Of a DNA stretch of 64,000 nucleotides, positions 7,577 through 61,151 are shown in pieces. The stretch's first letter is position 1; every line of letters begins with the position of its first letter. The position numbers and the translations under genes are program-made. A model generated the notes under the pieces. The model saw only the letters and a list, made by a program, of their open reading frames with translations, did not search any database and was not told where the DNA came from. This stretch comes from an uncultured Chlamydiae bacterium (lineage in GTDB: Bacteria > Chlamydiota > Chlamydiia > Chlamydiales > Parachlamydiaceae): NCBI GenBank assembly GCA_963754655.1, contig CAVWGN010000001.1, forward strand, positions 2,880,001 to 2,944,000, read 5' to 3'.

Positions 7577-8275
7577 ATGAAGTATTTTTCTTTTTTGGCC
7601 CTCTTGACTTCGCTTGTCTTGCAAGCAGGGCTTATGGCTCAGCCCTATCAAAATAATCAACCTGCACCTCAAATAGAAGTGCAAGTCCAAAAGCTTCCTT
7701 CTAATCATGAAGAAGGGAGTTATTTTCCAAAAGGTACTTATACTGGTCAAACACAAGCGGGTAACAAAGACGAAAATCGCCTTTCCAATTCTGGATATGC
7801 AAATGATGCTTATGCTCCTCCTCAATCTGATGAATTGCGCCCCAATCAAAAAATTGAACGCACTCTCTCTATTTTGAAACCTGATGCTTTAAAAAATAGA
7901 CATGTTGGCGATATCATTTCTCGCTTTGAAGATGCAGGCTTACGTGTGGCTGCGATTAAAATGATCAGATTGAGCTCGGAGCAAGCCAGTCAATTTTATA
8001 GCATGCATCGCGAACGCCTCTTCTTCCCTGATCTTGTCAAATATATGTCATCTGGCCCCATCATTGTGATAGTCCTAGAGGGCAATCAAGCAATCAGCAA
8101 GAATCGACAATTGATGGGCAGCACTGACCCCAAAAAAGCAGAAAAAGGAACCATTCGTGCTGATTTTGCACAATCTATTACTGAAAATGCCGTTCATGGA
8201 TCAGATAGTCCTGAAGCAGCTCGACAAGAAATTGCCTTTTTCTTCCAACCTAATGAAATCTATACGGGATATTAA
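7577..8275 (+). CDS. Second nucleoside diphosphate kinase with signal peptide and ~70-aa linker
   Basis: Hydrophobic N-terminus ending LMA-Q; C-terminal TLSILKPDA...NAVHGSDS domain. Confidence 0.9.
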
Positions 8276-8494
8276 TTTCTAACTTTCATTTACTTGGCAA
8301 TAAAGTCGGCATCAACGAATGAAAATCTTATAAAGGACGAGCCACGTCATTAACTCACAATCTGTTGATGTCGTGGCGTTAGTTACAGGCTGTCGAACTA
8401 AGAAAATGAAGTTTAGGCTAAATCGCTTCAAATGAGAGAATTTGCATTGGTTGGGTTGGTTTTGCAGGAAATCCAAGCGCCAAAAGGTTGACTG

Positions 8495-8540
8495 TATTCC
8501 ATTACATTAGTTTTTGCCTATTGGGACAGTTTTAAATCCC
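8495..8540. repeat. Degenerate left end of family-D MITE-like palindrome
   Basis: GTATTCCATTACATTAGTTTTTGCCTATTGGGAC matches the ends at 14865, 27968 and 40926. Confidence 0.8.
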
Positions 8541-8830
8541 TATGCGTTAAGGTTAAGAGATGAACGTAGGCTACGCGACGCATTCAGTCGCCCGCCGCTT
8601 CGCTCTGGGCTCTAGGTGAGGGGTTGAGGACCCACCGTTCGGTCGCCCTCTGGGCTCGGTCACGGTGGGCTATTACCAGTCGTCCTCCGGACTCTAGCGG
8701 CAATGTAGAAGTCATTGAATGTTAGGTAAGGTCTTTGTTAATGCTGTTAGAATGCTAGTCAAGGCGTCTTGATCCTGCCGCTAGAGTCCGGAGGACGACT
8801 GGTAATAGCCCACCGTGACCGAGCCCGAAG

Positions 8831-10154
8831 AGTTGTGTCAAGTATTATGTGCAAATTGGTAAGAGATCTCATTAGGTTAAGCTATTTTTTCAACGCTCAG
8901 TTGTTCTTGTTTCTTTTGCTCTTTTAATAGATCCATATTTAAATATCTTTTATCTACCCATCCCTCATGAACCTCAACTGCAATTGCTAATATCAATCTT
9001 AAGCAACTCTCTTCATTTGGAAAAATTCTAATAACGTGTGTTCTTCTCTTAATTTCTTCATTTACTCTCTCGAGTAAGTTCGAACTTTTTAAATGCTTAT
9101 GATGTTGTTTTGGAAACTGGTAAAACGTTAATGTCTCAAAAATATTTTCCTCCACCCATGTACATAACTTTGGATACTTCATCATCCACTTCTCTAGCCA
9201 CATATTCAAATCTGTTTTGGCTTCTTTAATATCCTTTCTATCATAGATCCATCGCAATTCTTGTAAGCAATCGTCGTTTGCTTTTCTTGGTAAATAATCA
9301 ATTGCATTTCTTAAGAAATGAACATAACATCTTTGCCAAGGGATTTGATAAAATACTTCCATTATCGCTTTCCTAAGCCCTGCATGCTCATCACTAATAA
9401 TCAACTCAACTCCTATTAATCCTCTTTCTTTCAATCTCAATAGAAAATCTTTCCAACTATTGTGAGATTCTCGATTTGCAATTTCCACTGCTAATACTTG
9501 CCTGTAACCTTCTCCATTCACACCTACTGCAATTAATATAGCCTGCGATTTTACTATCCCATTTTCTCTAACTTTCTCATAACGAGCATCTACAATTAGA
9601 TAAGGATAAACTTCTGTCAATTTTCTATTTGCAAACTGCTTTAAGTCCTCGTCCAAGCTCTTATTGATGTTGCTTATTGTCGTCGCTGAAAATTCATGTC
9701 CGCAAAGTTCTTCTGTGATTGCCTTCACTTTCCTGGTTGATACTCCTTGGACATACATTTCTGCTAGAGCTGATACTAATGCTTTTTCCGATCTTTCATA
9801 TCGTTCAAAAAGCTCGGTAGAAAACATTCCCTCTCTGTCTCTTGGTACTTTTAGCTCTATATTGCCTATTCGCGTCACTAAGTGCCTTGTATAATAACCT
9901 GCTCTATAGCCTTTTCTTTCTTTGGATCTTTCACTCTTATTTGCTTCCAAAGTCTCGATCATTTCGGCTTCTAAAAAATTTTCGAGAGCAGTTTTCATAA
10001 GAGACTTCATTAAATCAACATCTTGTTCAATAACTTCTTTAGATAATTTGTTTTTCTCAATAGAATACTTTTTGGTCATGGTATACCTCTTTTTGTAGTT
10101 AATAAGAGATCATCTTACCATGACCTTTTTTTGCACATAATTTTTTACACAATC
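8831..10154 (-). mobile_element. IS256-family insertion sequence (1324 bp)
   Basis: Imperfect TIRs AGTTGTGTCAAGTATTATGTGCAA / TTGCACATAATTTTTTACACAATC; 8-bp TSD GCCCGAAG at 8823-8830 and 10155-10162. Confidence 0.95.
8877..10079 (-). CDS. IS256-family (Mutator) transposase
   Basis: VPRDR, GVSTRKV, VDARYEKVR, ISDEHAGL, QRCYVHFLRN, LERVNEEIKRR. Confidence 0.96.
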   Translation of the reverse strand: MTKKYSIEKNKLSKEVIEQDVDLMKSLMKTALENFLEAEMIETLEANKSERSKERKGYRAGYYTRHLVTRIGNIELKVPRDREGMFSTELFERYERSEKALVSALAEMYVQGVSTRKVKAITEELCGHEFSATTISNINKSLDEDLKQFANRKLTEVYPYLIVDARYEKVRENGIVKSQAILIAVGVNGEGYRQVLAVEIANRESHNSWKDFLLRLKERGLIGVELIISDEHAGLRKAIMEVFYQIPWQRCYVHFLRNAIDYLPRKANDDCLQELRWIYDRKDIKEAKTDLNMWLEKWMMKYPKLCTWVEENIFETLTFYQFPKQHHKHLKSSNLLERVNEEIKRRTHVIRIFPNEESCLRLILAIAVEVHEGWVDKRYLNMDLLKEQKKQEQLSVEKIA

Positions 10155-10758: not shown

Positions 10759-13700
10759 CTACTCATTTAAAGTGATAGTAAAGGTTCTTTGAGTAGAACT
10801 TCCGCAACTGGTAGTTACCCGAATAGTAAACGTATAAGTTCCCGGTGAACCACTTGGTTCATTTTCTCCACTAGCTGTAATAGTCCCAGCAAATAACCCA
10901 GGAAAATTAGTTGGAGACAGAATAAGTCCCGTAGGTAAACTTCCTGAGACTATAGCAAATCTAAAGGGAGCAGATGCAGTTGTGGATATTTCAACAAACT
11001 GATAATAACCGCCACCCACTGTGGCATCGGGTAATGTCTCTGTCCTGAAGCTAACGGCTGAACAGGTTACTGTTAATGTTGTAGAACCCGAGACTCCTGC
11101 TTGTGTCGCTGTAATGGTTGTACTGCCTGCATTGTTGCCCGTAGCTGCTCCTTTATCAGCTGCAGCATTAGAAATATCTGCAACTCCTGTATTGGAAGAA
11201 CTCCAAGTCGCTTGAGTTGTGAGATCTTCTGTTGTCCCATCACTGAAAGATCCTGTTGCTGTGAATTGAATCGTCTCTCCACCCAGAATGCTTGGAGTAG
11301 CTGGCGTCACTGTAATGGATTCTAAAGTAGCTGGTGTGACAGTTAAGGTTGTCGATCCTTTCACAGCTCCTAAAGAGGCTTCAATTGTTGTGGTGCCTTC
11401 ATGCAATGTTTGAGCGAGTCCTTGACTGCCAGAAGCATTAGAAATCTTTGCAACGTTTTGATCGGAAGAATTCCAAGTCACTTGAGTTGTAAGATCTTTT
11501 GCGGTCCCATCACTAAAAGATCCGGTTGCTGTGAATTGAATAGTATATCCAAGAGCAATACTTGGATTAACGGGTGTCACTGTAATTGTATCTAAGACAG
11601 CAGGTGTCACAGTTAAGGTTGTCGATCCTGTCACATTTCCTGAAGAAGCCTTAATTATTGTGGTGCCTACATCCAATGTTTGAGCGAGTCCTTGACTACC
11701 AGAAACATTATAAATCACTGCAACGTCTGAATTGGAAGACTCCCAAGTCACTTGGGCTGTAAGATCTTGTGTTGTCCCATCACTGAAAGATCCGGTTGCT
11801 GTGAATTGAATCGTACGTCCAAAAGCAATACTTGGATTAGCTGGTGTCACTGTAATTGATTCTAAGACAGCTGATGTCACAGTTAAGGTTGTCGATCCTG
11901 TCACATTTCCTGAAGAAGCCTTAATTATTGTGGGGCCTACATCCAATGTTTGAGCGAGTCCTTGACTACCAGAAACATTATAAATCTCTGCCACCTCTGG
12001 ATTGGAAGACCCCCAAGTCACTTGAGTTGTGAGATCTTCTGTTGTCCCATCACTAAAAGATCCGGTTGCTGTGAATTGAATCATACGTCCAACAGCAAGG
12101 CTTGGATTAAAGGGGGTTACTGTAATTGATTCTAAGACAGCTGATGTCACAGTTAAGGTTGTTGATCCTGTTACATTCTCTGAAGTGGCACTAATTGTTA
12201 TGGTATCTACATCCAATGTTTGAGCGAGTCCTTGACTGCCTGCAGCATTAGAAATGACAGCAACTTTTGAATTAGAAGAATTCCAAGTCACTTGAGTTGT
12301 AAGATTTGCCGTTGTCCCATCACTGAAAACTCCTGTCGCTGTAAATTGAACAGTACGTCCGACAGCAACGATTGGATTAAAGGGCGTCACTGTAATTGAT
12401 TCTAAGACAGCAGAAGTGACAGTTAAGGTTGTCGATCCTGTTACATTCTCTGAAGTGGCACTAATTGTTGTAGTTCCTACAGCTACTCCTGTAGCCTCTC
12501 CTTGACCGCCTGCAGCATTAGAAATATCTGCAACTGCTGAATTGGAGGAACTCCAAGTCACTTGAGCTGTAAGATTTTGCGTGGTTCCATTACTGAAAAC
12601 TCCTGTCGCTGTAAATTGAACAGTACGTCCAACAGTAACGCTTGGATTAAAGGGTGTCACTGTAATTGATTCTAAGACAGCTGATGTCACATTTAAGGTC
12701 GCCAATCCTGTCACATTCCCTAAAGCTGCAGTAATGGTTGTGCTTCCTACAGTTATTGCTATAGCCAGCCCTTGACTGTCAATGACAGCCACTCCTGGAT
12801 TAGAAGAACTCCAAGTGACTTGGGTTGTGATATTTTCTGTTGTACCGTCGCTGAAAATCGCTGTTGCTATAAATTGAAGAGTATACCCGGCAGCAATGCT
12901 TGGATCAATAGGTGTGATATTAATGGAGGTCAGCACAGCATTTGTCACTGTCAATTGTGTCGAGCCCGATATTCCATTTAATATTGCTTTAATCGTTGTC
13001 GTGCCAGGACTTAAGCCTGTAGCCAGTCCCTTAGAAATCACAGCAACAGCTGGATTAGAGGATTCCCAATTGACGCTATTGGTAAGATTTTCTGTTGTTC
13101 CATCGCTAAATATCCCAGTGGCTGTAAAGGCAAGTTGATATCCGGCAGCAAGTGTCGAAAACTCAGGATCTATTTCAATGGAGACCAGCTGAGCAGTTGT
13201 CACTGTCAATGTGGTCGACCCTGATATCCTATGTCGCTCTCCAGATGAGCGATGTGTTTCAGAGGTATGACTCCTATCCGAGGAGCTGCTACTATATCTT
13301 CCAGATATTCCACCTACTGTAGCTTCAATTACAGTGGTACCTGGACTTAGGCCAGTGGCTAACCCCTTACTTCCCGGCTCATCAGAAATCGTTGCGACTG
13401 TTGGATTCGAAGAAGACCACTGAACCTTATTTGTCAAATCGACTTTTGAATTATCGCTAAATATGCCTGTTGCCGTAAATTGAATGGTAAAATTAACTGC
13501 AACCACTGGATCAATTGGTGTCACTTCAATTTTAGTTAAAACAGGATGGAACACGCGCACCTTAGCTCCGATAAACCTAATGATAGCGGCAGCGGATTGA
13601 TTGCCCGCTTCATCTACGCTTACAATATAATAAGTATAAATTTGATGTTTCTTGCGATTGTGATCTCGAAATCTTAATTTTTGATCGGCTGAAATGGTGG

Positions 13701-14864: not shown

Positions 14865-15467
14865 CTAGTACTCAACCACATTAGTTTTTGCCTATTGGGA
14901 TTGCTTCACAGGCCCGGTTGGGGATGCGATGATTCTCTTGTAGTCCTTCAGACTACATGACGGGGGCTAATCTAGCCCAGGGCATCGCCCCATACGCATC
15001 AAGCTAAGAGAAGAGCGTAGGCTACGCGACGCCTTCAGTCGCCGCGCCGCTTCGCTCTGGGCTCTAGGTGAGGGTTTTGAGGACCCACCGTTCGGTCGCC
15101 CTCCGGGCTCGGTCACGGTGGGCTATTACCAGTCGTCCTACGGACTCTAGCGGCAATGTAAAAGCCATTGAATGCTATTTAAGGCGTTCTGATAATGCCG
15201 CTAGAGTCCGTAGGACGACTGGTAATAGCCCACCGTGACCGAGCCCGGAGGGCGACCGAACGGTGGGTCCTCAAAACCCTCACCTAGAGCCCAGAGCGAA
15301 GCGGCGCGGCGACTGAAGGCGTCGCGTAGCCTACGCTCTTCTCTTAGCTTGATGCGTATGGGGCATCGCCATGGGTTAGATTAGCCCTCTTCATGTAGTC
15401 TGAAGGACTACAAGAGAATCATCTCATCCCAACCGCGGGGCCTGTGAAGCAATCCTAATAGGCAAAA
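14865..15467. repeat. Composite ~600-bp palindrome: family-D element with a family-A element at its centre
   Basis: Outer arms ~14886-14980 and ~15371-15467 are imperfect inverted repeats enclosing the inner element. Confidence 0.93.
14991..15360. mobile_element. Family-A MITE (370 bp) with IS231/IS4-like ends carrying an inverted REP-like doublet
   Basis: 165-bp arms (14991-15155 and 15196-15360) appear perfectly inverted around a 40-bp spacer; ends CATACGCATCAAGCTAAG; flanked by GGGCATCGCCC and GGGCATCGCCA. Confidence 0.85.
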
Positions 15468-41044: not shown

Positions 41045-41441
41045 TAGGGTGTTCATTTTGTGCAAAAAATGAGCTTTATTTTTCACAATAATTGGCATAG
41101 TTAAATTGAAGGTCGCATGTTTATGCCGTCCTTTCAGGACTCGATGTCTTTTTGATAGAACCCAGGCCTCCGCTTCGCTGCGACCTGGGCTGTAACATGA
41201 CAGCCCTTCAGGCCTTAACAAAAAGATGATTTAGGGACTATAGAAGAGGGACTTAAACATCTCTTGTTAAGGCCTGAAGGGCCGTCATGTTACAGCCCAG
41301 GTCGCAGCGAAGCGGAGGCCTGGGTTCTATCAAAAAGACATCGAGTCCTGAAAGGACGGCATAAACATGCGACCTTCAATTCAACTATGCCAATTATAGT
41401 GAAAAATAAAGCTCATTTTTTTGCACAAAATGAACACCCTA
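41045..41441. mobile_element. Family-B MITE-like palindrome (397 bp) carrying an inverted REP-like doublet
   Basis: Arms 41045-41221 and 41264-41441 are near-perfect inverted repeats; ends TAGGGTGTTCATTTTGTGC; second copy at 48532-50638. Confidence 0.9.
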
Positions 41442-48522: not shown

Positions 48523-48622
48523 GCCCAGGGATAGGGTGTTCATTTTGTGCAAAAATGAGCTTTATTTTTCACAATAATTGGCATAGTTGAATTGAAGGTC
48601 GCATGTTTATGCCGTCCTTTCA

Positions 48623-50084
48623 GGGACAATTGCAGAATAAACAATAAATTATTTTAATTTACCACTTTCAAAAAAAGGCTCCTTAATATAGTCTAGATGT
48701 AGAAAAACCGTCTTAAACTATACAAGGAACCGAAAAATGTTCAGAGAAAAATTATCGCAAATGTGGAATAACGTACAGTCTACTCTTTTTCCTGATTTAA
48801 TCAAACGAACTCATGAACTCTGCCCTGAGTATAAAAAATTAGTATCAATTCTGGAACTTGTTCGTATTGAAAGTCATATTCCGCGATCCTTCAAATTAGG
48901 AAGGCCACCAAAAGATCGCATCGCAATGGCTAGAAGTTTTATCGCAAAAGTAGTCCTAAAACAACCTTACACTAAACAAATTATTCGCCTGCTAAACCAG
49001 GATGAACAATTGAGGATTATTTGTGGTTGGGAGGCAAATCATAAAATTCCTTCTGAATCTAAATTTTCTAGAGCTTTCAAAGAATTTAGCCAAATAACCC
49101 TTCCGGATAGGGTTCACCAAGCATTGGTTAAAGAATTTTACAAGGGAGAGATCATAGGACATGTGATAACAGATTCTACACCCTTAGAAGCACGTGAAAA
49201 ATCATTAAAAAAACCATGTGCAAAAACACGTCGAAAAGAAAAAGACAAAGAAAGAAGAAGAATGAAAAGTGCTGGAGAACCAAATCTACGTCAACAGCAG
49301 TTGAATGAACCAGATCTTCGAAAAATGGTAGAACATCTTCCTATAGCATGTGACAAAGGCATGAAAAGAAATCCTCAGGGATTTCACATTTTTTGGAAAG
49401 GCTATAAGTTGCATACTAATGTTGATGATAATGGAGTCCCTTTGGCTGCAATTGTCACATCTGCATCGTGTAATGACTGTGAAGTTGCAATTCCTTTATC
49501 TCTAAAAACAAGCAAGGTAGTAACTAATTTGTACGATTTAATGGATGCAGCTTACGATTATCCAGAAATCAAGGAATTTAGCCGATCCCTTAATCATATA
49601 CCAATTATCGATCAGTGTTCGCGAAGTGCAGCTCAAAAAAAGGCAAAAATGGAAGAGAAAAAAAGAAAAACTCTTTTAAATTTTAAAACAGCTGAAGAAA
49701 AGAGGTACGCAGAGCGATTTCCCAAAGAATCCTTTAATGCATTCTTTAAGGACTATTGTGGAGGACATAGGATATATTACAGAGGATATCAGAAAGTCTC
49801 TTGCCATGCATTATTTGGAGTATTAACAGCGGCCGCTATGATGTTATTGAAATTCACTTCCTAAAGATCGATTAAATTTCAAAGATTGACAGTATCTTCT
49901 TACGTTACCCCCTGCCAAAATTAGATCAATTTTTAAAAAAATTCAAAAAATTCGAATGTTTTGCATAAAAGTGTTTTTTTTTCATTAAAACTTAGTCGTC
50001 TAGAATCGATTCTTTTCGATCTCAGGTACAATTGACAGAAAAAAAATCGCAGTATAACACGCTAAATAATTCTGCAATTGTCCC
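48623..50084 (+). mobile_element. DDE insertion sequence (~1462 bp; IS5/IS1182/ISNCY-like)
   Basis: 16-bp TIR GGGACAATTGCAGAAT / ATTCTGCAATTGTCCC; TSD TTTCA at 48618-48622 and 50085-50089 (or a 17-bp TIR with TTC). Confidence 0.92.
48737..49864 (+). CDS. DDE transposase (DDE_Tnp_1-like)
   Basis: IPSESKFSRAF, DSTP, GYKLH, TSAS..D, LMDAAYD; enclosed by TIRs. Confidence 0.9.
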   Translation: MFREKLSQMWNNVQSTLFPDLIKRTHELCPEYKKLVSILELVRIESHIPRSFKLGRPPKDRIAMARSFIAKVVLKQPYTKQIIRLLNQDEQLRIICGWEANHKIPSESKFSRAFKEFSQITLPDRVHQALVKEFYKGEIIGHVITDSTPLEAREKSLKKPCAKTRRKEKDKERRRMKSAGEPNLRQQQLNEPDLRKMVEHLPIACDKGMKRNPQGFHIFWKGYKLHTNVDDNGVPLAAIVTSASCNDCEVAIPLSLKTSKVVTNLYDLMDAAYDYPEIKEFSRSLNHIPIIDQCSRSAAQKKAKMEEKKRKTLLNFKTAEEKRYAERFPKESFNAFFKDYCGGHRIYYRGYQKVSCHALFGVLTAAAMMLLKFTS

Positions 50085-50154
50085 TTTCAGGACTCGATGT
50101 CTTTTTGATAGAACCCAGGCCTCCGCTTCGCTGCGACCTGGGCTGTAACATGAC

Positions 50155-50482
50155 GGCCCTTCAGGCCTTAACAAAAAGATGATTTAGGGACTATAGAAGA
50201 GGGACTTAAACATCTCTTGTTAAGGCCTGAAGGGCGGGCCCTTTAAGCCTTAACAAAAGGACTATTTATGGACTATAGAAGAGGGACTTAAATCTCTCTT
50301 GTTAAGGCCTGAAGGGCCGGCCCTTTAAGCCTTAACAAAAGGACTATTTATGGACTATAGAAGAGGGACTTAAATCTCTCTTGTTAAGGCCTGAAGGGCC
50401 GGCCCTTTAAGCCTTAACAAAAGGACTATTTATGGACTATAGAAGAGGGACTTAAATCTCTCTTGTTAAGGCCTGAAGGGCC
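50155..50482. repeat. Four tandem 82-bp units, each an inverted hairpin pair with a fixed spacer
   Basis: Units start at 50155, 50237, 50319 and 50401: GGCCCTTYARGCCTTAACAA...TTGTTAAGGCCTGAAGGGC(C/G). Confidence 0.95.
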
Positions 50483-50686
50483 GTCATGTTACAGCCCAGG
50501 TCGCAGCGAAGCGGAGGCCTGGGTTCTATCAAAAAGACATCGAGTCCTGAAAGGACGGCATAAACATGCGACCTTCAATTCAACTATGCCAATTATTGTG
50601 AAAAATAAAGCTCATTTTTGCACAAAATGAACACCCTAGTCCAGGGATCATTGCTATCCCTTAAATAACCAAATAGCTGGATTTGT

Positions 50687-58844: not shown

Positions 58845-59057
58845 ATGTTAACAAAATTTTTAATTATTATCATTCGTCTCTATCAAGTGGCAATTAGCCC
58901 TTTTTTGGGGTTATGCTGCCGTTTTTATCCGACTTGTTCTGCTTATATGATCGAGGCTCTCAAGAGCCATGGCTTTTTCAAGGGAGGCTGGCTAGGTCTT
59001 AAGCGCTTATGTAAATGCCACCCGTGGCATCCTGGCGGTCATGATCCTGTTCCTTAA
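58845..59057 (+). CDS. yidD: Membrane protein insertion efficiency factor
   Basis: [27 protein letters not shown]. Confidence 0.95.
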
Positions 59058-59078
59058 AACTCATGTAATGGAGTACTA
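59056..59078. repeat. Solo family-D right terminus
   Basis: AAAACTCATGTAATGGAGTACTA, nearly identical to 28107-28129. Confidence 0.75.
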
Positions 59079-59094
59079 TTACTATAGACACCAT

Positions 59095-59976
59095 GGTCAA
59101 GTTGACCGCTTTTAAAACAATGTTCGGACATGAAATAAATATTTATACGTAAATTAAAATATGATAAAAATTTTAATTTCTTGCTATATCGCGGAGCGAT
59201 AAAAGTGGGAAGCCCCGCATGCAGCGTAAGGCCGGTAGGCCTGAAGCGGAATGTGGGGCTGCCAAACCAAATTCTTAAGTCGCGGAAGCGACGACAGAGG
59301 GAGATATGACTCATTCCTATCGGCTGCATTATTTCCATCTTATTTGGTCAACCAGACAGCGACTCCCTCATATCGCTCCTGATGTTCAATCCCGTCTTTA
59401 TCCCTATTTGGGAGCTATTACACGGAATCATTCAGGAAAACTGTTAGAGATCGGAGGAATGTCAGATCATGTTCATTTATTAATAGAGCTTTCTTTACTC
59501 GATAAATTTTCTCATTTTATCAGAGATCTAAAAGCATCTTCCTCTCAATGGATTCATAAAAATTTTCCCAATCTCCATGATTTTGCCTGGCAAGAAGGCT
59601 ATGGATCTTTTTCCGTAAGTTATTCAGCTCTACAAGATGTACAGAAGTACATACAAAATCAAGAACAACATCATGCAACTATGTCATTTAAGGATGAATA
59701 TCTTAAATTCTTGAAACATCATCATGTAAAATATGATGAAAGATTTGTATTGGGATGATCACATTCACTATCCTTACGCTGCTCCCGCAGCTTAATGATC
59801 TTTTGGATACACCCCCACATTCCGCTTCAGGCCTACCGGCCTTACGCTACATGCGGGCTTCCCACTTTTATCGCTCCGCGATATAGCAAGAAATTAAAGT
59901 TTTTATCCTGTTTTAATTGACGTATAAATATTTATTTTATGTCCGAACATTGTTTTAAAAAGCGGTCAAGTTGACC
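59095..59976. mobile_element. Y1/HUH nuclease locus enclosed by ~164-bp inverted arms (family C)
   Basis: 59095-59258 is inverted relative to 59813-59976 with few mismatches; both outer ends carry GGTCAAGTTGACC. Confidence 0.9.
59306..59758 (+). CDS. tnpA: IS200-type Y1 (HUH) transposase-like protein, no tnpB
   Basis: HLIWSTR, DHVHLL (HUH), LKASSS, FAWQEGYG, KYIQNQ (catalytic Tyr); GAGGGAG RBS. Confidence 0.95.
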   Translation: MTHSYRLHYFHLIWSTRQRLPHIAPDVQSRLYPYLGAITRNHSGKLLEIGGMSDHVHLLIELSLLDKFSHFIRDLKASSSQWIHKNFPNLHDFAWQEGYGSFSVSYSALQDVQKYIQNQEQHHATMSFKDEYLKFLKHHHVKYDERFVLG

Positions 59977-60002
59977 CACTTATATCATGGTGAGAAACTT
60001 CT

Positions 60003-61151
60003 ATGGCTATAAACTCTTTCCCTCTTGTCAGTGTCATTATTCCTACCTATAACCAAGCGCGCTATCTGCCAGAAGCATTAGATAGCGTTCTTCAACAAAC
60101 TTATCCTTCAATCGAATTGATCGTCATTGACGATGGATCAACCGATGAGACAGTCCTGATTGGAAAACGCTATGAACAAGATTCTAGAGTTCATTGGATA
60201 AAGCAAACGAATCAAGGGCCTGCCCATGCACGCAATCACGGCATTTCACAAGCTCAAGGAGAGTATATTTGCTTATTGGACAGCGATGATATCATGCATT
60301 CTGAACGCGTTGCAAAGCAATATGAAGTCTTTCAAAAAAATCCCTCTATCGACATTGTTTATACAGCTTTAGAATTAATCGATTCTCAAGGCCACTCCTT
60401 AGGAATCATGCAAGGTCAACAAATTCCATCAATTGATTTTCTAGCCTTCATGCTCTTCCGCAATCTCATTCCCACCTCAAGCGTCATCATGTCCAAAAGC
60501 CACTGTTTAAAAGAGCACCCCTATCATACTGCTTACAGACATGCGGAGGATTATGAGCTTATGCTGCGTTTAGCCCACCTCTTTCACTTTCATTATCTCG
60601 ATGTTCCTTTAACGCGCTACCGCCGCCACAAGACCAACCTTTCTAATGATCTAGAAGCTCATCGGACCACCGAATGCAAAGTATTGCAAAAATATCCCCG
60701 CTCCCAGATTGATCAAATTGTGAATCAAACGACCCTTCCACCTGAGGAAAAGGAGCTTCTCAAAGGACGTATTCTGTTTAACCAAGAACACTTTGAAGAT
60801 GCTTTAACTCTCTTTAAGCAGCTTCACTTAAGTTTAGCTCTCTTTTATCAAGGCAACTGCCTTCTGCGGCTCCATCATCCTCTGCAAGCCTTGCAAGCCT
60901 ATCAACAAGCACTCGCGCAAGATCAAACTAACCCTGCCTGCTATAACAATTTAGGAGTCGCCTACGCCCTTGAAGGAAAATTAGATCAAGCCAAAGAATG
61001 CTTTCGACAAGCCTTAGCTCTTAACAAAAGCTACCTCGATGCTCAATTTAATCTTCATCATTCGCTGGATCAATGGCGCGTGACCTGGCGTGAGCTGCGC
61101 CCCACTCTACTTCCCTACCATTCATTAAAAAGATCATCCCATGAACAGTAA
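60003..61151 (+). CDS. GT2 glycosyltransferase with C-terminal TPR repeats
   Basis: VSVIIPTYN, DDGSTD, LDSDD, EDY; TPR motif YNNLGVAY. Confidence 0.92.
   Translation: MAINSFPLVSVIIPTYNQARYLPEALDSVLQQTYPSIELIVIDDGSTDETVLIGKRYEQDSRVHWIKQTNQGPAHARNHGISQAQGEYICLLDSDDIMHSERVAKQYEVFQKNPSIDIVYTALELIDSQGHSLGIMQGQQIPSIDFLAFMLFRNLIPTSSVIMSKSHCLKEHPYHTAYRHAEDYELMLRLAHLFHFHYLDVPLTRYRRHKTNLSNDLEAHRTTECKVLQKYPRSQIDQIVNQTTLPPEEKELLKGRILFNQEHFEDALTLFKQLHLSLALFYQGNCLLRLHHPLQALQAYQQALAQDQTNPACYNNLGVAYALEGKLDQAKECFRQALALNKSYLDAQFNLHHSLDQWRVTWRELRPTLLPYHSLKRSSHEQ

What the first reader, a model, noticed from the sequence alone, without database searches (positions are those of the whole stretch)
59095..59976. 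Stand-alone IS200-type HUH nuclease inside 164-bp inverted arms: candidate driver of a REPIN-like palindrome system in Chlamydiae
Seen: an intact 150-aa Y1 protein (HVH, YIQNQ), no tnpB, flanked by long inverted arms made of an AT-rich outer part and a GC-rich hairpin unit. The innermost hairpins differ in sequence but both pair (GTCGC-GGAA-GCGAC left; GCTGC-GGGA-GCAGC on the right minus strand), indicating selection on structure. Established: IS200/IS605 elements have non-equivalent ends without TIRs, while RAYTs are flanked by inverted REPs but typically carry YxxxNP rather than YxxxQ. Inference: an IS200-like enzyme behaving like a RAYT and maintaining the gene-less palindromes found elsewhere in this window.
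Basis: partly seen in the sequence, partly recalled or inferred. Interest (0 to 1): 0.85.

Follow-up and report, generated by a model that had tools for sequence, protein, structure and literature searches.

The report
IS200-like nuclease between three-hairpin arms
A small DNA-cutting enzyme gene sits between two mirror-image, three-hairpin DNA arms; relatives across many bacteria carry the same arms and gene-less copies of them, which suggests an overlooked second kind of repeat-spreading system and a DNA role for an orphan 'RNA' family.

Summary
Observation confirmed. The 150-aa protein belongs to TnpA-Y1 subclass 1.2 (Quentin 2018; listed there with no REPs). It is neither a canonical IS200 TnpA nor a RAYT. 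The arm's functional core is about 105 bp: hairpin, NNAG tag, hairpin, hairpin. Inverted arms frame 64 of 77 homologues from many phyla (sham 0 of 138). Arms and gene co-occur in 12 of 140 Chlamydiota genomes, with one genome holding only the gene and one only arms. Many such arms match Rfam's orphan Acido-Lenti-1; this copy does not.

It is a lineage-specific insertion with decayed sister copies and no gene-less doublet of its own. Window family B matches another paralogue (91%). The nearest abundant family (C, 65-73%) has terminal repeats and 9-bp target duplications (20 of 25), a DDE signature. Nuclease activity is untested.

The scan reported this system before in other genomes. New here are the phylum-wide co-occurrence and the capture by DDE shells.

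The parts
59306..59758 (+). tnpA, 150-aa HUH/Y1 endonuclease of TnpA-Y1 subclass 1.2 (DHVH, WQ, Y-x3-Q-x2-HH, two-helix C-terminal tail)
   Evidence: NF033573 66.3 bits (cut-off 55); NF047646 RAYT 25.3 (cut-off 80); PF01797. Signature matches Table 1 of PMC6006769. Tree. dN/dS 0.05-0.09 against 5 homologues.
59187..59298 (+). left core arm, read towards the gene: hp1 - spacer ending GAAG - hp2 - spacer - hp3 - GACAG
   Evidence: Model R1, built without this locus: 33.1 bits, E 1.6e-5. Fold z -5.3.
59188..59200 (+). hp1 of the left arm (ATCGC-GGA-GCGAT)
   Evidence: sequence; fold
59209..59212 (+). NNAG tag (GAAG) at the foot of hp2; candidate guide, equivalent in position to the GTAG of REPs
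   Evidence: AG followed by C at this position in 88 of 96 parsed arms. The guide role is inferred from PMC8266576.
59213..59258 (+). hp2 of the left arm: long CCCC..GGGG stem with an inner GGCC-GGTA-GGCC hairpin
59279..59292 (+). hp3 of the left arm (GTCGC-GGAA-GCGAC)
59773..59883 (-). right core arm, read towards the gene on the minus strand (hp1 59870-59882, GAAG 59858-59861, hp2 59813-59857, hp3 59778-59791)
   Evidence: R1 17.9 bits, E 0.021, weak. Fold z -4.9.
59095..59186 (+). left AT-rich outer extension, starting in a small GGTCAA-G-TTGACC hairpin; lineage-specific
   Evidence: 24% GC. Not shared by relatives L215, L219, L220. Shared with relic copies in this genome.
59884..59976 (-). 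right AT-rich outer extension; ends in a fragment of the inner part of the CTAG-flanked 'D9' shell
59056..59078 (-). 23-bp remnant of a D9 shell end, directly after the yidD stop codon
   Evidence: sequence; family D9/D10
41064..41421 (.). family B gene-less outward doublet (arms 41122-41219 and 41266-41363) inside a terminal-repeat shell; same grammar, cognate to paralogue pD rather than to this gene
   Evidence: R1 36.7 and 41.2 bits; 91% to the pD right arm, 61% to the query arms
50074..50562 (.). family B arms separated by 82-bp tandem units
14921..15430 (.). family A gene-less outward doublet (arms 15052-15150 and 15201-15299), nested in pA-type arm pieces and a D9 shell; no cognate tnpA found
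   Evidence: R1 18.2 bits each, weak; 48-61% to the six paralogue arms tested

Best explanation
This is a REPtron-like cassette built on TnpA-Y1 subclass 1.2: tnpA between two inverted ~105-bp ends, each made of hp1, an NNAG tag, hp2 and hp3.

Shown: the protein class; the conserved three-hairpin geometry; co-occurrence of gene and arms; purifying selection on the protein; arrival of this copy at a new site; and gene-less doublets that keep one left-type and one right-type inner hairpin.

Inferred: the enzyme binds the folded single strand that reads towards the gene, which is one arm per strand. It uses the NNAG tag as a guide to nick near the arm, probably at C|T by the REP rule. It rejoins ends by tyrosine-linked strand transfer, which deletes the gene to give doublets and occasionally moves the whole cassette.

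In this genome most later multiplication of doublets was done by DDE-type terminal-repeat shells that captured them. This particular copy is a recent, low-output member whose own sister copies have decayed.
For: Protein: subclass 1.2 signature. In the tree, 41 such rows form one side (SH-aLRT 80), apart from 10 canonical IS200/IS605 rows (87) and 9 RAYT rows (100). WQ is present in 41 of 41 at the column of E. coli RayT W94/Q95, against W[S/A/T] in 10 of 10 canonical rows. TnpB-like ORF at 0 of 105 subclass-1.2 loci and 6 of 28 control loci.

Arms: inverted match in 64 of 77 loci; sham windows 0 of 138; cross-locus pairs 7 of 300. hp1-centre-to-hp2 distance is 18-19 nt in 78 of 96 parsed arms, with AG+C at the foot in 88 of 96. 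17 of 18 pairs show double-sided changes. The held-out model hits 20 of 23 chlamydial 1.2 loci, 0 of 11 canonical IS loci and 0 of 10 RAYT-type loci.

Co-occurrence: gene in 13 and arm in 13 of 140 genomes, both in 12. Shell-free gene-less doublets were seen in G101, G173 and G175. G011 has doublets of its own tnpA arms.

Mobility of the cassette: absent beside yidD in 8 of 8 relatives. Closest homologues (87%, 78%, 76%) lie in other genera or families, while same-genus genomes give at most 46%. Five tnpA-bearing relics at 90-96%. A related cassette lies inside the 5' part of a terminal-repeat IS whose relatives lack it.

DDE capture: family C duplication >=8 of 9 bp in 20 of 25 elements, 0 of 2000 controls. 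The same shell carries other cargo in G006. Arms near an inward-facing shell end: C 69 of 69, pC-like 68 of 74, B 207 of 284, A 49 of 84; random positions 75 of 1000.
Against: No biochemical data. No empty site close enough to define the cassette's ends or to show insertion without target duplication; the empty IS is too diverged. So Y1-catalysed movement is not shown for any copy. In this genome the clear transposition signatures belong to DDE shells, not to the HUH enzyme. The query has no gene-less doublet of its own. The covariation count is partly circular, because arms were picked by a hairpin parser. Co-occurrence partly counts the gene's own arms, only 30 candidates per genome were scored, and kin are not independent. 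Support for the 1.2 group as one side of the tree is only 80, and in the careful tree, which held a wrong E. coli row, the group was not resolved as one side. The query's tag is GAAG, seen in only 1 of the 88 AG-footed arms. R1 detected only 1 of 6 family C arms under default filters.
Confidence: 0.62

Rival explanations
1. One reading: this copy is a domesticated, RAYT-like resident gene that maintains the window's gene-less palindromes (families A, B) in trans.
For: Single intact copy. Strong purifying selection. Families A and B share the arm grammar. Almost no homologues on plasmids (2 of 72,556 records, both >600 kb) or phages (0 of 50,697).
Against: Family B matches paralogue pD (91% against 61%), and the query's own arm is nearly absent as free copies. 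The site is empty in relatives. Relic copies carry tnpA pieces. The abundant families sit in DDE shells.
Confidence: 0.13
2. An ordinary low-copy insertion sequence of the IS200 type: the arms are only its ends, and gene-less doublets are inert deletion products spread by other elements.
For: Passes the NCBIfam IS200/IS605 cut-off. Best structural E-values are to ISDra2 and IS608 TnpA. Patchy distribution and relic copies. Near-identical tandem paralogues pA/pB. DDE signatures on the gene-less families.
Against: The ends are inverted equivalents with three hairpins, unlike the 11 canonical loci tested. No near-identical full copy of this element exists. Full-length paralogues are 37-44% identical. 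Shell-free doublets are abundant elsewhere (at least 121 arms in G175).
Confidence: 0.15
3. The arms are structured RNAs or generic hairpin repeats (the Acido-Lenti-1 reading) that collect beside tnpA for another reason, such as control of tnpA expression; they are not DNA substrates.
For: Rfam lists the motif as an sRNA. The arms lie 5-95 nt from the gene. G-T pairs make one strand fold better, which fits RNA as well as ssDNA.
Against: Fixed inverted placement on both sides of the gene. Tag in the REP position, and WQ shared with RayT. The Rfam model lies on the strand opposite to the tag-bearing strand. No sigma-70-like promoter found in 59050-60010.
Confidence: 0.1

Closest known systems
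TnpA-Y1 subclass 1.2 (Quentin, Siguier, Chandler, Fichant 2018, PMC6006769; I read the abstract, sections 6 and 12, part 1 of 2 of section 15 with Table 1, and passages)
   Same: DH[IV]H, WQ, Y---Q--HH, ~30-aa tail, ~148 aa, low copy number, paralogues about 36% identical, no tnpB.
   Different: [quoted passage not shown] Here most members have inverted three-hairpin arms, and the group is common in PVC and Acidobacteriota.
REPtron: RAYT/TnpA-REP with REP/REPIN/BIME (Bertels 2017, 10.1101/119735, parts 2-4 of 5 read; Corneloup 2021, PMC8266576, passages)
   Same: HUH/Y1 gene between inverted tag-footed palindromes; gene-less doublets elsewhere; several divergent paralogues, each with its own repeat family; rare on plasmids; WQ motif.
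   Different: Protein is class 1 (Y---Q) and below the NF047646 cut-off. The unit is ~95-110 bp with three hairpins rather than one 20-40-bp hairpin. The tag is NNAG rather than GT[AG]G. The locus is not syntenic across relatives.
'RAYT-like' IS200 Group 3 of Bertels 2017
   Same: IS200-side proteins with no duplicates, none on plasmids, and abundant flanking 16-mers.
   Different: Its sequences were not seen (preprint supplements closed), so identity with subclass 1.2 is unverified; Quentin 2018 says 1.2 was not described by Bertels. The flanking repeats were not characterised in the parts read.
IS200/IS605 family (IS608, ISDra2)
   Same: Core fold and catalytic HUH/Y; guide tetranucleotide 5' of a hairpin; mobility of the gene-bearing unit.
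   Different: Inverted equivalent ends, so only one inward-reading end per strand; no tnpB; extra C-terminal helices; separate branch in the tree.
Acido-Lenti-1 RNA motif (Rfam RF01687; Weinberg 2010, PMC2864571, table rows and supplement passages seen)
   Same: Matches the reverse complement of hp1+tag+hp2 of many arms: above cut-off at 8 of 20 non-chlamydial loci and 2 of 20 chlamydial loci, and just under cut-off beside paralogue pD.
   Different: Catalogued as an sRNA of unknown function (still so in a passage of 10.64898/2026.10.21.760802). The query's own arms give no Rfam match because hp2 is longer.
TIRYT/TIRtrons (Di Nocera 2013, PMC3733652, passages; figures and Additional file 5 not seen)
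   Same: Y1 genes flanked by longer inverted repeats, some self-complementary, some forming repeat families.
   Different: Quentin 2018 assigns all 26 examples to subclasses 2.1, 2.2 and 2.5, none to 1.2.
MITEs of DDE insertion sequences
   Same: Families B, C and pC-like have terminal repeats, and C has 9-bp duplications.
   Different: Their interiors are doublets of the Y1 arms. No autonomous element with the family C ends was found in this genome.

Membership tests
TnpA-Y1 subclass 1.2 | DH[IV]H, WQ and Y---Q--HH motifs | tested here: met
   DHVH, W95-Q96, Y115-x3-Q119-x2-H122-H123
TnpA-Y1 subclass 1.2 | short core plus ~30-aa conserved C-terminal tail, ~148 aa | tested here: met
   150 aa; PF01797 covers residues 7-119; tail helices 128-138 and 145-148
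TnpA-Y1 subclass 1.2 | low copy number, divergent intragenomic paralogues | tested here: met
   5 further full-length paralogues at 37-44%
TnpA-Y1 subclass 1.2 | no REP-like flanks (as published) | tested here: not met
   inverted arms at this locus and at 64 of 77 homologous loci; this contradicts the published description, not the protein's membership
TnpA-Y1 subclass 1.2 | score against the authors' own subclass profiles | not testable with these tools
   profiles not held; assignment rests on motifs and my tree
RAYT / TnpA-REP (class 2) | Y---NP motif and NF047646 cut-off | tested here: not met
   Y---Q; 25.3 bits against cut-off 80; outside the RAYT side of the tree
RAYT / TnpA-REP (class 2) | flanked by inverted palindromes with a tetranucleotide at the foot | tested here: met
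   GAAG here; NNAG in 88 of 96 arms, GTAG in 22
RAYT / TnpA-REP (class 2) | cognate gene-less copies abundant in the genome | tested here: inconclusive
   not for this copy (4 arm copies, no doublet); yes for paralogue pD (275) and loosely for pC (71 arms at ~80%)
RAYT / TnpA-REP (class 2) | vertical inheritance at a fixed locus | tested here: not met
   absent beside yidD in 8 of 8 relatives; closest homologues at other loci
RAYT / TnpA-REP (class 2) | strand-specific ssDNA cleavage at C|T near the REP | not testable with these tools
   needs an in vitro assay
IS200/IS605 (subclass 1.1) | NF033573 cut-off | tested here: met
   66.3 bits against 55
IS200/IS605 (subclass 1.1) | W[TS] motif and placement with IS200/IS605 TnpA | tested here: not met
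   WQ; separate side from 10 canonical rows
IS200/IS605 (subclass 1.1) | non-equivalent single-hairpin ends without long inverted repeats | tested here: not met
   164-bp inverted arms
IS200/IS605 (subclass 1.1) | near-identical full copies in the genome | tested here: not met
   no second full copy; only fragments at 90-96%
IS200/IS605 (subclass 1.1) | insertion 3' of a fixed tetra- or pentanucleotide without target duplication | tested here: inconclusive
   no close empty site
Acido-Lenti-1 (RF01687) | gathering score 37 bits | tested here: not met
   no match in 58900-60200 at E <= 5; met by arms of homologues
DDE-type MITE (family C, not the query) | terminal inverted repeats and target duplication | tested here: met
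   25 elements with both ends; >=8 of 9 bp duplicated in 20; 0 of 2000 controls
DDE-type MITE (family C, not the query) | autonomous partner with the same ends | tested here: inconclusive
   none found in this genome or at 3 single-end loci in relatives

The most novel reading that the evidence does not exclude
Subclass 1.2 is a second, independent REP-type system that arose on the IS200 side and is still mobile as a whole: a living intermediate between IS200/IS605 and domesticated RAYTs. Its enzyme reads a three-hairpin ssDNA end at fixed spacing, uses an NNAG guide, and both moves the gene-bearing cassette and spawns and spreads gene-less doublets. The abundant orphan 'Acido-Lenti-1 RNA' is the opposite strand of that DNA end. 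In this chlamydial genome, DDE shells have captured its doublets and amplified them to hundreds of copies.
Probability: 0.45. Interest if true: 0.78.

Novelty: new variant of a known kind. Interest (0 to 1): 0.6.

Why it matters
How REP/REPIN repeats spread, and how RAYTs arose from IS200-like ancestors, are open questions. Bertels 2017 states there is no evidence that RAYTs move themselves. A widespread IS200-side enzyme with symmetric REP-like ends, a defined tag and signs of whole-cassette movement gives a direct bench system for both questions. It would correct the published description of subclass 1.2 as repeat-free. It would reassign an abundant Rfam 'sRNA of unknown function' to a DNA recognition end. 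It also warns that high copy number of gene-less doublets does not show Y1 activity: in this genome DDE shells explain most of it.

Tried and rejected
Rfam on the whole window gave only tRNAs; on the element at E <= 5 it gave only two chance matches.

A true RAYT in this genome as driver of the repeats: none over the cut-off.

An autonomous IS with family C ends: all 25 end pairs span about 300 bp. Three single-end loci in relatives were not IS ends with a transposase.

Arm homogenisation for this copy: left versus right arm 7 differences, versus the 2432k relic 9-10. Too small a gap to claim.

Precise ends from empty sites: yidD sites and the empty IS are too diverged. The DDE-like ORF in L220 has no Pfam match, so its family label is my inference from its terminal repeat and context.

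Foldseek gave a lower rmsd to RAYT 4ER8 (2.8 A, rank 30) than to IS200 TnpAs (4.6-12.7 A). I do not use this, because a single-chain model would be expected to pack the tyrosine helix onto its own core.

Sequencing runs: no RNA holder listed, and all shares were small. Four contig sets covered pieces of related elements and gave no usable joint.

The first tree held a wrong E. coli row (YafL instead of RayT) and was rebuilt. No homodimer prediction was obtained, so monomer versus dimer stays open.

Literature searches that found no paper linking subclass 1.2 to such arms or to Acido-Lenti-1. The library lacks most subscription papers. Supplements not seen could bear on this: Bertels' group sequences, Di Nocera's file 5 and figures, Quentin's additional files, and any Weinberg motif commentary not held as text.

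Full report
1. Observation. The ORF at 59306-59758 encodes 150 aa with DHVH and YIQNQEQHH. It lies between yidD and a GT2-TPR glycosyltransferase. The arms 59095-59258 and 59813-59976 differ at 7 of 163 columns, and the two inner hairpins are as described. The strands reading towards the gene fold far better than shuffles (z -5.3 and -4.9) and better than their complements.

2. Protein. It passes the IS200/IS605 model (66.3 against 55 bits) and fails the RAYT model (25.3 against 80). Its motifs match Table 1 of Quentin et al. 2018 for subclass 1.2, which that paper calls IS200-related but without IS properties and lists with no REPs. I built a 60-row tree (one search held a wrong E. coli row). 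RAYT (9 rows, support 100), canonical IS200/IS605 (10 rows, 87) and the query's group (41 rows, 80) each form one side of a branch. All 41 have WQ in the column of E. coli RayT W94/Q95, residues that Quentin et al. link to GTAG contact; canonical rows have W[S/A/T]. The model (pLDDT 88.7) matches ISDra2 and IS608 TnpA best and RAYT 4ER8 at rank 30. dN/dS against five homologues is 0.05-0.09. A TnpB profile built from six control ORFs hit 0 of 105 subclass-1.2 loci.

3. The arms are a family trait. A genome scan returned the best 80 of at least 602 matches, mostly Planctomycetota, Acidobacteriota and Verrucomicrobiota, plus Bacteroidota and others; two plasmid loci were added. Of these 82, 77 had both flanks. 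An inverted match was found in 64 of 77, in 0 of 138 shifted sham windows and in 7 of 300 cross-locus pairs. Direct matches occurred in 28 of 77, probably because flanks often hold doublets. At least one inverted hit (L126) is a terminator-like hairpin and not an arm.

A hairpin parser scored 120 of up to 164 flanks, and my spacing filter kept 96, from 63 loci. These show hp1, a spacer ending in AG before hp2 (88 of 96; ATAG 26, GTAG 22, TTAG 14, AAAG 8), a fixed 18-19 nt from hp1 centre to hp2 (78 of 96), then hp3. I aligned 67 of the 75 arms with a short hp2, dropping 8 with irregular spacers. 17 of 18 pairs show double-sided changes, though the selection makes pairing partly circular.

The model R1 contains no sequence from this genome. 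It finds both query arms (33.1 and 17.9 bits) and the window's families A and B. It hits 20 of 23 chlamydial 1.2 loci, 0 of 11 canonical IS loci and 0 of 10 RAYT-type loci. Among metagenome loci it hits 13 of 16 1.2-type and 0 of 17 canonical-type. The query keeps the geometry but has a long hp2 and the rare tag GAAG. Its AT-rich outer 92 bp is lineage-specific.

4. Acido-Lenti-1. An earlier scan note gave this lead, and I tested it. RF01687 is above cut-off at 8 of 20 non-chlamydial loci given and brackets tnpA in L015 and L017. It lies on the strand opposite to the tag. In this genome it gave 148 matches among 150 scored of 1077 candidates, 11 above cut-off, with one just under cut-off beside paralogue pD. 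The query's arms do not match. A preprint of October 2026 still calls the family 'of unknown function' (one passage seen).

5. Gene-less copies. Across 140 Chlamydiota genomes, the gene was found in 13 and an arm in 13, both in 12. G027 had only the gene at this threshold and G101 only arms. Only 30 candidates per genome were scored, kin are not independent, and a gene's own arms count, but most listed hits lie away from tnpA. Inward doublets without long outer repeats were seen in G101, G173 and G175 (at least 121 arms among 150 scored in G175). G011 carries doublets with one left-type and one right-type inner hairpin of its own cassette, as expected from loss of the gene between the arms.

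6. This copy and this genome. The genome has six full-length subclass-1.2 genes, one canonical-type TnpA and no RAYT. Family B (275-285 arms) is 91% identical to the pD arm and 61% to the query. Family A (84 arms) is 48-61% to the paralogue arms tested. Family C (69 arms, 33 inward pairs; not in this window) is the query's nearest, at 65-73%. The query's own arm has 4 copies, 2 of them its own, and no doublet.

Family C ends in a terminal repeat and duplicates 8-9 of 9 target bases in 20 of 25 elements (0 of 2000 controls). That IS200/IS605-type HUH transposition makes no duplication is recalled knowledge; on that basis this is a DDE signature. The same shell carries unrelated palindromic cargo in G006, with 9-bp duplications at 2 of 3 full copies seen. 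Most arms of the abundant families lie just inside such shell ends. So copy number here mostly reflects capture by shells.

7. The cassette itself has moved. No tnpA lies beside yidD in 8 of 8 relatives, and in G011 and G013 yidD and the glycosyltransferase are adjacent. The closest homologues are in other genera or families at other loci. Five fragments with tnpA sequence at 90-96% identity and four arm-only fragments are scattered in this genome; three relics are joined to the inner half of the D9 shell. A related cassette sits in the 5' part of a terminal-repeat IS that is empty in G088 and G228. Whether the Y1 enzyme or a carrier did the moving is not resolved. Homologues are almost absent from plasmids (2 of 72,556) and phages (0 of 50,697).

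8. Mechanism. By analogy with Corneloup et al. 2021 (passages), where A3-G4 of the tag select C|T, the near-invariant AG should guide nicking at C|T on the folded strand. Each strand offers one inward-reading arm, so the classical one-strand left-end/right-end excision of IS608 cannot apply unchanged. Nicking and strand transfer between arms would give doublets. Whole-cassette movement would need a two-strand or replicative route, or a carrier. All of this is inference.

9. Verdict. A real REPtron-like cassette of a known protein subclass with an arm system that my six paper searches did not find described. The scan noted the same system in several other genomes; those notes are not independent evidence. 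Class: new variant of a known kind. Interest 0.6.

Noticed in passing
G000:C1 whole chromosome: About 15% of the chromosome (464 kb in 981 segments) is covered by 18-mers present five or more times; this includes repetitive protein-coding arrays as well as mobile elements.
   Followed up: partly
G000:C1:452539-452854, 602638-602929, 1249902-1250213: Family C elements inserted at or near the same site in the first codons of dead pA-type tnpA copies, with the target duplication visible at 452539.
   Followed up: partly
G000:C1:2542103-2548500: Two near-identical pA/pB paralogues in tandem plus a truncated third. About 16 pA-type left arms elsewhere are mostly followed by decayed tnpA starts, so that cassette once had many gene-bearing copies.
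   Followed up: partly
L052-L054 (G016): Outward-facing doublets whose palindromy extends about 10-25 nt into flanks that differ between copies, as if local flank had been mirrored.
   Followed up: no
L223 versus L219/L224; L229 versus L215: A left-type arm is joined to the flank that elsewhere lies beside the right arm, suggesting inversion of tnpA between its arms or copying of one flank to the other side.
   Followed up: partly
L214:1-1958: Contig with two left-type arms in inverted orientation enclosing tnpA plus an IS630-like transposase (label from motifs, recalled); a possible composite unit or an assembly artefact.
   Followed up: no
L220:1046-1669; L269; L256: A widespread chlamydial terminal-repeat IS whose transposase N-terminal part has no Pfam match at E <= 0.1.
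   Followed up: partly
window 11149-13523: Seven or more 270-bp tandem repeats, probably a repeat-domain protein gene.
   Followed up: no
window 8078-10128 and 48533-50637: A 390-aa ORF-bearing element nested inside family B and D9 shells; probably the IS described in earlier scan notes.
   Followed up: no
L144-L152: True RAYT-type (Y---NP) genes occur over the cut-off in 7 of 150 Chlamydiota genomes; their flanks lack the three-hairpin arm.
   Followed up: partly
G000:C1:1646400-1648000: The one canonical IS200/IS605-type tnpA in the genome has DHVN in place of HUH, and no ORF of 250 aa or more lies in the tnpB position beside it.
   Followed up: no
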